Positions 5,156-55,958 of a stretch of DNA of 64,000 nt are shown piece by piece. The first letter of the stretch is position 1. The number at the start of each line of letters is the position of its first letter. The position numbers and the translations under genes were made by a program. This stretch comes from Escherichia phage vB_EcoM-UFV10. The DNA is taken from the sequence record OP555981.1; one strand, 5' to 3'. The notes under the pieces are model-generated. The model did not search any database and had not been told where the DNA came from. It was given only the letters and a program-made list of their open reading frames with translations.

Positions 5156-5581
5156 TTATTCCTTAAAATGGGCTTTCAGCATCTGATACAAAGACCACGC
5201 CTGTTCATTATTTTCAATAGTAACTTTCATGACCGGGAATTCTGTGAAATCTTCTATCTGTTCTTGCTCTTTCTCTTCCTGCTCTTGCTCTTCGGCTGCC
5301 TGGTATGGATTTTCCACTTCATCAAAGAACACAGCTTCGCTCGTTGAAAGCCAGATAAAATCTTCATCCAAAATATCTTTACCAGAAGATAACGCCAATT
5401 TTCCACTAGATGTCACAAGTTTAGTAGGACGACCAAGATAGTCAATATCTGTAACTCTAAAAGGTTCCATACCAAGACGACGTGCATAAATTCCGTTTTC
5501 AGTATGGTCCTTGATAAAATCTTCTTGAGCTTGTTTATTTTTAAATTGATACCATTTATTAACTTCAAATTTAATAGCCAT
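5156..5581 (-). CDS. acidic hypothetical protein (possibly goF-like by size and position)
   Basis: 141-aa ORF with acidic [12 protein letters not shown] stretch; T4 goF is also 141 aa at this position but identity not verified. Confidence 0.45.
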
Positions 5582-9178: not shown

Positions 9179-10498
9179 TCACACATAAAATACGTCATAA
9201 CGACCACGGGTAACACCAACATAAAGAAGTTGTTGAGCCAATTCAGCATCTGCATAATGAATACAAGGCGTATAAATGAAAGCACGGTCTACAGACATAC
9301 CCTGAGCTTTATGGAATGTTGATGCAGGAAGTGCTTTCACTTTACTAAACTGTGATTTAGCATCCCAAAAATCACTCCATGGAGCTTTTCCGCCTTTGTT
9401 CAAATTTTTATAAGTTTCTGCCGTTTTACCTAAAAATAAGTTAAACTTATACAGCTCTTCATCAGATGAAATTATTTTAATCTTTTCACGATAATATTCA
9501 TCATCGCCGTAAGTTTCTACTGTTAAATCCCAATGACGAATTAGATATTCTCCAGGAACACCACGAGCTTTAACAAATGTTGATGTATATTCTGCTTCTA
9601 TAATACGAACTAATTGTCCGTTATTAAAAATAATTTCTGACACAGGCTTTCCATCAATTTTATATGTTTTAATTAATGGTTCCTGCATTACAATAATTTC
9701 ACCGACAATAAAATCTTTATCAGTTTCAAAAATCTTTTTACGAATAATGCTATTTAACTTGTCAACAGATTTATTCGTAAATGCCATTACGCGATTTTCA
9801 AACAAATCATCTAGTGATTTGACGATTGAAAAATAATTTACCATAAAATCGCGTAAAGCGGTATCACCAGTAAATCCACGTACTCCATGCCCGTCAACAA
9901 CTTTATCATAAATCCACTTACCGTTGCGAACATCAGTAGCTACATCAATAATAGGAGCATTACTGCGTTTAACTTCAGTGAGTTCACACTGATAAAAATC
10001 TTTGTGTGTAAAAAATGGACTGATATAAGCAGTGTTTTCTCCTGGGTCAACAGGTCTAATTTGCTTATTATCACCTATTCCAATTATAGTACACCACGGC
10101 GGGATAGTTGAAAGCAGAATTTTAAATAGCTTTCTATCATACATTGACACTTCGTCGCAGATTAATACCCTGCATTTAGCTAAATCTGGTACTTCCTTCT
10201 GTTCAAAAAGAACGTTTTCTTCATATGTTACGGGGTTAATTTTAAGAATACTGTGAATAGTACTCGCTTCTTTCCCCGACAGTTTTGAAAGAATCTTTTT
10301 AGCTGCATGTGTAGGAGCTGCCAAAATGATACCAGTTTCGCCCGTAGATATTAAAGCTTCAATGATGAACTTAGTAAGAGTAGTCTTACCAGTACCAGCA
10401 GGTCCATTAATAGTTACATGATGTTTCTTTTCTTTAATAGCCCTCATAACGATGTTAAAGGCATTTTTCTGACCTTCGGTCAAATCATCAAATGTCAT
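9179..10498 (-). CDS. dda: Dda DNA helicase (SF1B)
   Basis: 439-aa ORF, Walker A GPAGTGKTT, length and position match T4 Dda. Confidence 0.9.
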   Translation of the reverse strand: MTFDDLTEGQKNAFNIVMRAIKEKKHHVTINGPAGTGKTTLTKFIIEALISTGETGIILAAPTHAAKKILSKLSGKEASTIHSILKINPVTYEENVLFEQKEVPDLAKCRVLICDEVSMYDRKLFKILLSTIPPWCTIIGIGDNKQIRPVDPGENTAYISPFFTHKDFYQCELTEVKRSNAPIIDVATDVRNGKWIYDKVVDGHGVRGFTGDTALRDFMVNYFSIVKSLDDLFENRVMAFTNKSVDKLNSIIRKKIFETDKDFIVGEIIVMQEPLIKTYKIDGKPVSEIIFNNGQLVRIIEAEYTSTFVKARGVPGEYLIRHWDLTVETYGDDEYYREKIKIISSDEELYKFNLFLGKTAETYKNLNKGGKAPWSDFWDAKSQFSKVKALPASTFHKAQGMSVDRAFIYTPCIHYADAELAQQLLYVGVTRGRYDVFYV

Positions 10499-11685: not shown

Positions 11686-12387
11686 TTATAGATTAAATCC
11701 TTCAAAATCAAGAGTATAGATAGTGTATGTTGAATACTTTTTATACTCATATCTATCTGCAATTCTAAATACACTTCCAGCTGGTATCATTACTTCTTGT
11801 TCATCTGAAACTAATTCCATATTACGATAACGATGGCTATCCGGAAACTTAAAGTTTGGATTGTATTCTTTACAGCGTAGAGCTTTTATAGCTTCTTGTT
11901 CATCTGAAACTAATTCCATATTACGATAACGATGGCTATCCGGAAACTTAAAGTTTGGATTGTATTCTTTACAGCGTAGAGCTTTTATAGCATACTCCTG
12001 GAAATTGAATACCATAGGAGCTTTGAATTCAAAAATAACCTGTGTGTTATACTCTAAACCAGAAGCAAAATGTAGAGCTATATTTTTATCATATGAAGCT
12101 GATACGACTTTATCAAATGTAATAATATCAATTCCTTGATTTAACACCTGCTTAGTCTCAGCTGGAACACCTCTCCAAAGAGGTTTATCGTTTGGAACCA
12201 AACGAGATTTGATTATTTCATTTAACCAAGTATGGTCATCTGGTTTGTTGGTAATACAATGAATTAAAAGTTCAATTTCAGATAAATTAAACCCTTCAGA
12301 AAGTAATTCTTCACGAATAGAAGCACGCACCGATGCATCCATTGATTTTATTTTAAAATCTTTTAGTTGCATTACTGAGTATTTCAT
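11686..12387 (-). CDS. modA: ADP-ribosyltransferase ModA-like carrying an internal 33-aa tandem duplication
   Basis: 233 aa (T4 ModA is 200 aa; 200+33); ART motifs R (LWRG), S-x-S (SAS), E-x-E (EQE); duplicated block AIKALRCKEYNPNFKFPDSHRYRNMELVSDEQE. Confidence 0.7.
   Translation of the reverse strand: MKYSVMQLKDFKIKSMDASVRASIREELLSEGFNLSEIELLIHCITNKPDDHTWLNEIIKSRLVPNDKPLWRGVPAETKQVLNQGIDIITFDKVVSASYDKNIALHFASGLEYNTQVIFEFKAPMVFNFQEYAIKALRCKEYNPNFKFPDSHRYRNMELVSDEQEAIKALRCKEYNPNFKFPDSHRYRNMELVSDEQEVMIPAGSVFRIADRYEYKKYSTYTIYTLDFEGFNL
11793..11990. repeat. perfect 99-bp tandem direct duplication (2 copies) inside modA
   Basis: 11793-11891 and 11892-11990 identical base for base; in frame. Confidence 0.9.
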
Positions 12388-13007
12388 TCAACTACCTCAA
12401 TATCATAAACTTTAAATGTTCCAAATGAATCGTGTAATTTTTCTTTTGAAATAGAAGTTATTCTATACTTTCCAATTGGAATCATCCATTCTTGTTCACG
12501 CACAATCATCATTAAGTTATCAGTACGCTCTGAATCTAACCCATCAGTATCTTCATATGTATACTTAAACTCAGTATTAGGAGAAGAAAGTATAATATCG
12601 CTGATATGGTCAGAGTAATTAAAAGCTTTATCAGTTTTTAAGCGAAGTATTGTTTCAGTGAAATATTCAGCATAAGAAAAAGAACACGCTGTATGCAAAC
12701 TAGTAGTAAATGAATCTACCCTGTTCGTTGAAAACACTTCTCCAACTTGTAAATCTTTAATGAGTTCTTTTGTCGATTTTGATATACCACGATATAATTG
12801 ATAAGGCGATTTAGTTAAATGCTTTTTAATGATTTTATTCAACTGTCTGTGAAGAGCTTCATTCTTTTTGGCTTCCATACATTGCCAAAGAATTGACTGT
12901 TCAAAGTCAGTAAATTTTTCACAGACCTTTTTATACATATCATATTGAAAATCAACGCTTTCGGCTTTTATAGATAACTGTTCAACATCTGCAAGATTAA
13001 TAATCAT
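12384..13007 (-). CDS. modB: ADP-ribosyltransferase ModB-like
   Basis: 207 aa as T4 ModB; ART motifs LYRG, STN, EQEWMIP; ATGA overlap with modA. Confidence 0.7.
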   Translation of the reverse strand: MIINLADVEQLSIKAESVDFQYDMYKKVCEKFTDFEQSILWQCMEAKKNEALHRQLNKIIKKHLTKSPYQLYRGISKSTKELIKDLQVGEVFSTNRVDSFTTSLHTACSFSYAEYFTETILRLKTDKAFNYSDHISDIILSSPNTEFKYTYEDTDGLDSERTDNLMMIVREQEWMIPIGKYRITSISKEKLHDSFGTFKVYDIEVVE

Positions 13008-13074: not shown

Positions 13075-13257
13075 TTATTTTGCCCAGGGAGCCCAAGGCG
13101 GAGGGTCAAGATGGTATGAAGCTAGTTCTTCTAGAAGAGCATCTGGGGCTTCAATTCCATAATTCTGTAATACTATACGGTACTCTTTCTTATAATCACT
13201 AGAATCATTCTGGATATTCGTAGAATGATTATCTTCTAACATCTCAAATAAATCCAT
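13075..13257 (-). CDS. hypothetical protein
   Basis: 60-aa ORF, ATG start. Confidence 0.35.
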   Translation of the reverse strand: MDLFEMLEDNHSTNIQNDSSDYKKEYRIVLQNYGIEAPDALLEELASYHLDPPPWAPWAK

Positions 13258-13265
13258 ACTAATTC

Positions 13266-13736
13266 CTAGCGATAAAAACCAAATTGACGATTAGCTTCAA
13301 TAATCTTTCTTTCTTCTTCGGACATTCTCCAGCGTAGTCCAACATCAAAATGAGCCCAGACCATCTTAACAAATGCATTTATATCTTTAATATCTTCAAT
13401 AATGAATGTTTTACTTTTAGAAGGTTGACTCGCTAATTTAACTTTATCGTCTTCAAACAGGTCAAAAAGACTATATTCATGAGCTCTTTTATAGCCTTTA
13501 ATAGTTAAAGCTTCGGAAGAAGAAAACGGCGAATCAGTATTCTGCAAAATATCTTCAGTATGCTTTATAATTAGAATAACATTTTCTGGATATTTTCTTT
13601 CTTTTATATCTTTAATTAAAATATCCGGATTTTCTGCTAAAGGAATAATTAATGAGCACTTTTTATCAAGTGTATTTACTGATTTACCTTCTTTAGACAT
13701 AAATTCTATTGAATAATGTTTTGCTACTTCAATCAT
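13266..13736 (-). CDS. hypothetical protein
   Basis: 156-aa ORF, ATG start. Confidence 0.45.
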
Positions 13737-13889
13737 GTGATTTCCTTTTGCCTACTAATGGACCGTCAGGAATTTTATTTTCCTGAATGTATTTCTCATT
13801 TTCTTCCATCATTTTACTGCCAATTTTAAGAAGCAAATCCATTGCTTCATTTGCTTTAGCCTTGGCCTCTTCCAGCGTCATATCTTTGT

Positions 13890-14093
13890 TCATGATTTAT
13901 CACCATAGATGTCTCTCATCAATTTAAGCGCTGAGCGTTCTAATTTCTTTTCTTTCTCAGCACTAATCATTGATTTCATCCATTCTTCTGATTCGTTCTG
14001 CATTTCTTTATTTGCTTGTTCAACCCAACCATCATCAATATACATTGAGTTTGGTCTATTAAACCATTCAAGAATCTTCTTGAGAGCTTTCAT
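13890..14093 (-). CDS. hypothetical protein
   Basis: 67-aa ORF, ATG start; a further ORF of about 52 aa lies at 13740-13893. Confidence 0.4.
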
Positions 14094-55433: not shown

Positions 55434-55763
55434 AATTACATACTCCTCTGAATCATATCAATAATGTTGTTCACCAGATTATAAGTAAACATTGGGTAAT
55501 TATATTGAATCATCACATACACAACAAACAAAACTTTCATTCTCTTCTCCTTGGCAGTTGACAAGATTACTATACCATAACCTTGCCAACTTGTAAACCA
55601 TTAAATGACGTTTTCAATAAAATTCTGAAGCTTTGTGTGAGCATCAACCATGATTTTCATTTCTTCTTTGGCGAAAGCTGTACCTCTTTCCCGAGAAGAA
55701 CACTCATAGTCAGAAACTGCATTAGCATATTCTTCAATTAGTTTCATTAAAAACATCTGCTTT

Positions 55764-55958
55764 TCAGTTTTCATTATTCCACCTAATCATTTCAAGATAT
55801 TGAACTAACTTAGCTTTAGATTTATCCAAATCCTTTTTAGCTGCTTCTATACCGTCGTATGAATATCCTTCACAATGCTCAACTGCTAATTGATATGAAT
55901 CTATTTCAACATCACGTGCTAATTTAATGATTTTTTCAAACTGTTCGTGTGTCAGCAT
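55764..55958 (-). CDS. hypothetical protein
   Basis: 64-aa ORF. Confidence 0.4.
   Translation of the reverse strand: MLTHEQFEKIIKLARDVEIDSYQLAVEHCEGYSYDGIEAAKKDLDKSKAKLVQYLEMIRWNNEN

What the first reader, a model, noticed from the sequence alone, without database searches (positions are those of the whole stretch)
11793..11990. Perfect 99-bp in-frame tandem duplication inside modA, duplicating the catalytic E-x-E region
Positions 11793-11891 and 11892-11990 are identical base for base. The result is a 233-aa ModA-like protein (200 + 33) in which the block AIKALRCKEYNPNFKFPDSHRYRNMELVSDEQE occurs twice, so the E-Q-E motif expected to be the ADP-ribosyltransferase active-site loop is present twice. 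Zero divergence implies a very recent event. It could inactivate, retarget or regulate the enzyme.
Basis: seen in the sequence. Interest (0 to 1): 0.6.

Follow-up and report, generated by a model that had tools for sequence, protein, structure and literature searches.

The report
Assembly-artefact duplication in phage modA
The perfect 99-base repeat inside the phage gene modA is almost certainly a leftover of genome assembly (an untrimmed 99-base contig-end overlap), not a biological duplication, because near-identical sister genomes each carry one repeat of the same length at a different random place.

Summary
Window 11793-11891 and 11892-11990 are identical, and the modA ORF (11686-12387, minus strand) reads as 233 aa, with residues 133-165 repeated, ending in the catalytic E163-Q-E165.

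The biological reading is not supported. The window is the first 64 kb of Escherichia phage vB_EcoM-UFV10 (protein UYL84162.1, contig 165,859 bp). With one copy removed, it differs from sister records UFV09 and UFV11 by one base in 63,901, and from UFV06 by four.

Each sister has single-copy modA but carries its own single perfect 99-bp tandem duplication elsewhere:
- UFV09 at 148,775 (long tail fibre gene)
- UFV11 at 55,601 (small ORF)
- UFV06 at 83,384 (baseplate wedge gene)

None of the four junctions has microhomology or a shared motif. The modA junction is absent from 50,697 phage records, IMG/VR, and the metagenome and genome collections.

One exact 99-bp repeat per assembly at a random site is the signature of a de Bruijn assembler's k = 99 end overlap on a pseudocircular contig. 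The overlap was kept when the genome was re-opened at rIIA. Because 99 is divisible by 3, the repeat is automatically in frame.

Verdict: not a real feature; interest very low.

The parts
11793..11891 (.). Copy 1 of the perfect 99-bp repeat. On the minus strand it encodes approximately ModA residues 166-198 of the 233-aa ORF, the second protein copy.
   Evidence: identical to 11892-11990.
11892..11990 (.). Copy 2 of the perfect 99-bp repeat. On the minus strand it encodes approximately ModA residues 133-165, the first protein copy. One of the two copies is inferred to be the redundant k = 99 contig-end overlap.
   Evidence: With one copy removed, the window is collinear with UFV06, UFV09 and UFV11 with 4, 1 and 1 mismatches over 63,901 bases.
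11872..11911 (.). Duplication junction (11891|11892), inferred to be the point where the two ends of the original contig were joined. The 40-mer is unique to this record.
   Evidence: Found once in the window. Absent from 50,697 phage records, IMG/VR, metagenome contigs and 185,579 species genomes.
11686..12387 (-). modA ORF as deposited (233 aa, UYL84162.1, 'ribosyltransferase'). The true gene is inferred to be 603 nt / 200 aa, with R72 and E163-Q-E165.
   Evidence: All 60 listed relatives span 603 nt. PHROG 832 match.
12384..13007 (-). modB (207 aa), the paralogous ADP-ribosyltransferase immediately upstream of modA. It provides synteny context and is unaffected.
55690..55788 (.). Control site. 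This 99-nt unit is single-copy here but perfectly duplicated in sister record UFV11 (55,601-55,798).

Best explanation
The duplication is an assembly artefact, not phage biology.

T4-type phages package circularly permuted, terminally redundant DNA, so short-read de Bruijn assemblers return a pseudocircular contig. The first k bases of that contig are repeated at its end. Here the largest k was apparently 99, a standard value in the SPAdes k series. For UFV10, the contig happened to break inside modA.

The depositors then re-opened the sequence to start at the rIIA stop codon, like other T4-like records, by joining the old ends without trimming the 99-base overlap. That converted a terminal redundancy into an internal perfect tandem duplication. 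Because 99 is a multiple of 3, gene callers read through it and produced a 233-aa ModA.

The real phage is inferred to encode the ordinary 200-aa ModA with a single R72 / E163-x-E165 active site.

Shown: the repeat, its uniqueness, and the one-per-assembly, same-length, different-site pattern in the sisters.
Inferred: the assembler, the k value and the rotation step.
For: 1. The window's 233-aa protein is UYL84162.1 of vB_EcoM-UFV10, on a contig of 165,859 bp. PMC10698182 gives UFV10 = OP555981.1.
2. With one copy removed, the window matches sisters over 63,901 bases: 1 mismatch to UFV09, 1 to UFV11 (itself de-duplicated), 4 to UFV06. It starts at the same base as UFV06. These are therefore independent assemblies of essentially one genome.
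3. A full scan of UFV09 (165,859 bp) for perfect tandem repeats of period 15-600 finds exactly one: period 99 at 148,775 in the long tail fibre CDS. That CDS is 3969 nt, against 3870 nt in UFV06.
4. UFV11 (165,859 bp) has one in its first 100 kb: period 99 at 55,601. The ORF there is 273 nt, against 174 nt in UFV09. The window has that unit once.
5. UFV06 (165,858 bp) has one in the interval examined: period 99 at 83,384. The baseplate wedge CDS there is 1104 nt, against 1005 nt in UFV09. The unit is single-copy in UFV09 and UFV11.
6. The modA unit is single-copy in UFV06, UFV09 and UFV11 and in all listed relatives among 501 phage records.
7. The junction 40-mer is absent from every collection searched.
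8. Identity runs are 99, 99, 99 and 100 bases, so the junctions have 0-1 nt of microhomology. They share no sequence motif.
9. Equal genome lengths (165,859) despite the different duplication sites fit a 165,760-bp genome plus one 99-base overlap in each record.
10. Trimming a k-mer-length terminal repeat from pseudocircular SPAdes phage contigs is described as a known artefact in PMC12007190.
11. The same laboratory re-opens assemblies to be collinear with a reference phage (PMC5146434).
Against: - No reads are available, so the junction could not be tested directly.
- No paper or record field seen here states the assembler or the k-mer used for UFV05-UFV11.
- Only the first 64 kb of UFV10 was readable, so 'exactly one duplication in UFV10' rests on its total length.
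- UFV11 was scanned to 100 kb only. UFV06 was scanned only over 1-64,200 and 82,600-95,100.
- A 33-aa in-frame insertion in a non-essential gene such as modA would be biologically tolerable, so the real-event reading is not impossible in principle.
Confidence: 0.93

Rival explanations
1. A genuine, very recent in-frame tandem duplication of modA codons 133-165 arose in the UFV10 stock by replication slippage or illegitimate recombination. It would give a 233-aa ModA in which one copy of the segment ending in E-Q-E sits in its native context (the second copy is followed by the native VMIPAGS strand) and the other forms a 33-aa insertion.
For: - The sequence as deposited contains the duplication and leaves an intact ORF.
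- modA is dispensable in T4 (established knowledge), so such a variant could persist.
- T4-type phages are known to form tandem duplications (own knowledge).
Against: - Three sister assemblies of essentially the same genome carry their own single perfect duplication of exactly the same 99-bp length at unrelated sites. Two of those sites are essential structural genes, baseplate wedge and long tail fibre.
- No biological mechanism fixes duplication length at 99 bp across unrelated sequences.
- There is no microhomology at the junction (1 nt).
- The junction is seen nowhere else.
- The genome length equals that of the sisters.
Confidence: 0.03
2. An artefact of another kind: for example a manual cut-and-paste error during re-orientation, or a reference-guided scaffolding or polishing step that pads joins by a fixed 99 bases, rather than an assembler k-mer overlap.
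For: - The same one-per-record pattern would arise from any systematic pipeline step that joins ends with a fixed overlap.
- The assembler is undocumented.
Against: - 99 is a standard odd de Bruijn k value, and the k-length terminal repeat of pseudocircular contigs is a documented behaviour (PMC12007190).
- The random positions fit arbitrary contig break points better than a deliberate edit.
- For the finding, the consequence is the same: it is not biology.
Confidence: 0.05

Closest known systems
k-mer-length terminal repeat of pseudocircular de Bruijn (SPAdes-type) contigs, left untrimmed and internalised by genome re-orientation
   Same: - The two copies are perfectly identical.
- The length equals a standard k value (99).
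- There is one repeat per assembly, at an arbitrary position, with no junction microhomology.
- The genome type is circularly permuted.
- The repeat is absent from independent assemblies of the same genome.
- The artefact is described in PMC12007190.
   Different: The repeat is internal rather than at the record ends, because the record was rotated to start at rIIA. The assembler and k are inferred, not documented.
Bacteriophage T4 ModA (200-aa R-S-EXE mono-ADP-ribosyltransferase that modifies RNA polymerase alpha)
   Same: - The gene is the modA orthologue. It lies directly downstream of modB in the dda-to-modB gene cluster on the minus strand.
- It has 99-100% nucleotide identity to annotated modA genes.
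- R72 and E163-Q-E165 are present. E165 is essential (PMC11404850).
   Different: The deposited ORF is 33 aa longer, with residues 133-165 repeated. This difference is attributed to the artefact, not to the protein.
Genuine tandem duplications in T4-type phages (illegitimate recombination or slippage)
   Same: Head-to-tail arrangement with zero divergence.
   Different: Genuine events vary in length and typically form at short direct repeats. Here four events in four sister records are all exactly 99 bp with 0-1 nt microhomology.

Membership tests
Untrimmed k-mer end-overlap assembly artefact | The two copies are 100% identical | tested here: met
Untrimmed k-mer end-overlap assembly artefact | The repeat length equals the assembler's largest k (odd; standard series 21/33/55/77/99/127) | tested here: inconclusive
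   The length is exactly 99 in all four records, which is a standard k value (own knowledge). The assembler and k actually used are not documented in any paper found.
Untrimmed k-mer end-overlap assembly artefact | Exactly one such repeat per assembly, at a position unrelated to sequence features, differing between assemblies of the same genome | tested here: met
   Window at 11,793; UFV09 at 148,775 (whole genome scanned); UFV11 at 55,601 (first 100 kb scanned); UFV06 at 83,384. The genomes differ by 1-4 SNPs over 63.9 kb.
Untrimmed k-mer end-overlap assembly artefact | The genome assembles as a circle (circularly permuted, terminally redundant packaging) | not testable with these tools
   The window is a Tequatrovirus. 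Headful packaging of T4-type phages is established knowledge. No reads were available to test it here.
Untrimmed k-mer end-overlap assembly artefact | No sequencing read spans the junction with unique anchors on both sides | not testable with these tools
   No read data are accessible. The junction is absent from all assembled collections searched.
T4 ModA ADP-ribosyltransferase | Sequence homology to characterised T4-type modA | tested here: met
   501 phage records match, and the listed ones are annotated modA / RNA polymerase ADP-ribosylase at 99-100% identity. PHROG 832 matches at E = 6.7e-34. There is no Pfam model and no PDB relative.
T4 ModA ADP-ribosyltransferase | Catalytic R ... E-x-E motif (R72, E163, E165) | tested here: met
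   WRG with R72 and DEQE with E163/E165 are read from the translation. E165A is inactive in T4 (PMC11404850).
T4 ModA ADP-ribosyltransferase | Synteny: modA directly downstream of modB in the dda-to-modB gene cluster on the minus strand | tested here: met
T4 ModA ADP-ribosyltransferase | ADP-ribosylation of RNA polymerase alpha | not testable with these tools
   This needs a biochemical assay.
Genuine slippage or illegitimate-recombination tandem duplication | Short direct repeat (microhomology) at the duplication boundaries | tested here: not met
   The identity run is 100 for period 99, so 1 nt, as expected by chance. It is 0 nt at the three sister junctions.
Genuine slippage or illegitimate-recombination tandem duplication | Independent events have independent lengths | tested here: not met
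   All four are exactly 99 bp.

The most novel reading that the evidence does not exclude
The UFV10 stock really carries a 33-codon tandem duplication in modA, coincidentally the same length as the assembly artefacts in its sister records. It would produce a ModA with two copies of the segment that ends in the catalytic E-x-E, and so with altered activity or target choice.
Probability: 0.02. Interest if true: 0.3.

Novelty: not a real feature. Interest (0 to 1): 0.03.

Why it matters
Biologically it does not matter: the phage is inferred to have an ordinary 200-aa ModA.

Practically, it shows that at least four public GenBank phage records carry a spurious 99-bp duplication and therefore a spurious 33-aa insertion in an annotated protein:
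- UFV10 (OP555981.1): ModA
- UFV09 (MZ291552.2): long tail fibre
- UFV11 (OP555982.1): a small ORF
- UFV06 (OP555980.1): a baseplate wedge protein

These errors propagate into protein databases (UYL84162.1 is already in NCBI nr). They could be mistaken for natural variation in receptor-binding or catalytic proteins.

A useful screening rule follows: a single perfect tandem repeat whose length equals a common assembler k (55, 77, 99, 127) in a circularly permuted phage genome should be treated as an artefact until reads say otherwise.

Tried and rejected
- A 100-base junction query against the phage collection was uninformative, because the tool joined the two halves as separate pieces in single-copy records. 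It was replaced by a 40-base junction query that can only seed across the junction.
- The UFV10 record itself (OP555981.1) is not in the phage collection. The exact protein is not in the contig index. The rest of the UFV10 genome could therefore not be scanned.
- Three papers from or about the UFV phage series gave no assembler or k-mer for UFV05-UFV11. Only the older UFV13 method was found: SeqMan NGen, with the consensus re-opened to match a reference.
- Pfam has no family for ModA or ModB, and the PDB has no sequence relative. The duplicated segment could therefore not be mapped onto a solved structure.
- Structure prediction and the large homology searches were deliberately not run. Once the artefact pattern was established, they could not change the verdict.
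- I considered that the duplication might be real in UFV10 and artefactual only in the sisters. I rejected this because UFV10's total length equals that of the sisters that carry a single 99-bp repeat.
- UFV05 (165,776 bp) was not examined.

Full report
**Observation.**
Window 11793-11891 and 11892-11990 are identical base for base. Tandem Repeats Finder reports period 99, 2.0 copies, 100% matches, score 398. A scan for perfect tandem repeats of period 15-600 finds no other in the window. The ORF 11686..12387 on the minus strand is 233 aa. The block AIKALRCKEYNPNFKFPDSHRYRNMELVSDEQE sits at residues 133-165 and again at 166-198.

**What the gene is.**
The ORF matches 501 phage records. The listed ones are Tequatrovirus genomes in which it is annotated modA / RNA polymerase ADP-ribosylase, at 99-100% nucleotide identity. 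It matches PHROG 832 (RNA polymerase ADP-ribosylase) at E = 6.7e-34, as does the upstream 207-aa ORF, modB. Pfam has no model for either, and no PDB chain is related by sequence. With one repeat copy removed, the protein has R72 and E163-Q-E165. E165A abolishes T4 ModA activity (PMC11404850).

**Where the window comes from.**
The exact 233-aa protein is UYL84162.1, 'ribosyltransferase [Escherichia phage vB_EcoM-UFV10]', seen on one contig of 165,859 bp. PMC10698182 gives UFV10 as OP555981.1. That record is not in the searchable phage collection. Four sister records from the same Brazilian sewage series are:

| Phage | Accession | Length (bp) |
|---|---|---|
| UFV09 | MZ291552.2 | 165,859 |
| UFV11 | OP555982.1 | 165,859 |
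| UFV06 | OP555980.1 | 165,858 |
| UFV05 | OP572230.1 | 165,776 |

All four have a 603-nt, single-copy modA that is 100% identical to the window's.

**Uniqueness of the junction.**
A 40-base query centred on 11891|11892 finds nothing in 50,697 phage records, IMG/VR, metagenome contigs or one genome for each of 185,579 species. It occurs once in the window.

**The decisive comparison.**
With one copy removed, the window is collinear without gaps with the sisters over 63,901 bases:
- 4 mismatches to UFV06, which starts at the same base.
- 1 mismatch to UFV09 (position 9402).
- 1 mismatch to UFV11 after de-duplication (position 9402).

These records are therefore independent assemblies of essentially one genome. 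UFV10 has the same total length as UFV09 and UFV11 despite 99 extra bases in modA, so I looked for compensating differences.

| Record | Region scanned | Perfect tandem repeat found | Affected CDS |
|---|---|---|---|
| UFV10 (window) | 1-64,000 | period 99 at 11,793 | modA, 702 nt vs 603 |
| UFV09 | whole genome | period 99 at 148,775 | long tail fibre, 3969 nt vs 3870 in UFV06 |
| UFV11 | 1-100,000 | period 99 at 55,601 | small ORF, 273 nt vs 174 in UFV09 |
| UFV06 | 1-64,200 and 82,600-95,100 | period 99 at 83,384 | baseplate wedge, 1104 nt vs 1005 in UFV09 |

Additional points:
- The window has UFV11's unit only once, at 55,690.
- For UFV06, comparing CDS coordinates with UFV09 placed a +99 shift between 82.6 and 95.1 kb. 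That interval contains the repeat.
- Each sister's repeated unit that could be checked is single-copy in the other records. The modA unit is single-copy in all three sisters.
- The identity runs are 99, 99, 99 and 100 bases, so there is no junction microhomology. The four junctions share no motif.

**Interpretation.**
Four assemblies of one genome each carry one perfect duplication of exactly 99 bp, at four unrelated sites. Two of those sites are essential structural genes. No biological process fixes the length of independent duplications at 99 bp.

A de Bruijn assembler does exactly this. A circularly permuted genome is emitted as a pseudocircular contig whose first k bases recur at its end, and 99 is a standard k value (own knowledge). 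The need to trim such a k-length repeat from SPAdes phage contigs is stated in PMC12007190.

The records all start at or within 11 bases of the rIIA stop codon. The same laboratory describes re-opening an assembly to be collinear with a reference phage (PMC5146434). Rotating a contig without trimming the overlap turns the terminal repeat into an internal tandem duplication at the original, arbitrary break point.

Because 99 = 3 x 33, any such repeat inside a CDS is in frame, which is why all four affected ORFs stay open. The lengths fit a 165,760-bp genome plus 99.

**Rivals.**
A genuine duplication in UFV10 is not formally excluded without reads, and modA is dispensable. But it would have to coincide in length with the sisters' artefacts and leave the total genome length equal to theirs. 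I give it about 3%. A different pipeline artefact with a fixed 99-base join is possible (about 5%), but it has the same consequence for the finding.

**If it were real (inference only).**
The second protein copy is followed by the native VMIPAGS segment and preceded by a native copy of residues 133-165. One copy could therefore occupy the native fold, with the other as a 33-aa insertion after residue 132. Activity could be retained or lost. This was not modelled.

**Verdict.**
The gene and motif identification are correct. The biological interpretation is not supported. This is not a real feature of the phage but an untrimmed assembly overlap (confidence about 0.93). Interest is very low. The only practical value is flagging four erroneous public records and their derived protein entries.

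Noticed in passing
L005/L006 (MZ291552.2, UFV09) record 148,775-148,972: A perfect 99-bp tandem duplication inside the long tail fibre (gp34-like) CDS makes it 3969 nt, against 3870 nt in UFV06. It has the same artefact signature, in a receptor-binding-apparatus gene where it could be mistaken for host-range variation.
   Followed up: yes
L008 (OP555982.1, UFV11) record 55,601-55,798; L015 (OP555980.1, UFV06) record 83,384-83,581: There are perfect 99-bp tandem duplications in a small ORF (273 vs 174 nt) and in a baseplate wedge subunit CDS (1104 vs 1005 nt). Each is unique to its record.
   Followed up: yes
window 9402 (in the 439-aa helicase ORF 9179-10498, minus strand, annotated 'DNA helicase' in the sisters and likely dda): This is the only base that differs between the de-duplicated window and UFV09 or UFV11 over 63,901 bases (A here, C in UFV06, UFV09 and UFV11). 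UFV06 differs additionally at window 14298, 14307 and 36264. The separately named UFV phages are essentially one genome.
   Followed up: partly
window 13075-13893 (three small minus-strand ORFs next to modB): In the sister records, the corresponding ORFs are annotated 'molybdenum ABC transporter, periplasmic molybdenum-binding protein'. This is implausible for 54-156-aa phage early proteins. It looks like a gene-name confusion with bacterial modA in the RASTtk annotation.
   Followed up: no
window 5253-5302: There is a short imperfect tandem repeat (periods 15 and 21, 79-84% matches, TRF scores 54-55) within a coding region. It is CT-rich on the plus strand.
   Followed up: no
OP572230.1 (UFV05), whole record: Its length is 165,776 bp. 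That is neither 165,760 nor 165,859, so this sister may have been trimmed differently or may carry other differences. It was not fetched.
   Followed up: no
window 11686-13007 (modA, modB): Neither ModA nor ModB matches any Pfam-A family (E up to 0.01). ModA, the only one of the two searched, has no sequence relative in the PDB. These long-studied T4 ADP-ribosyltransferases still lack a curated domain model.
   Followed up: partly
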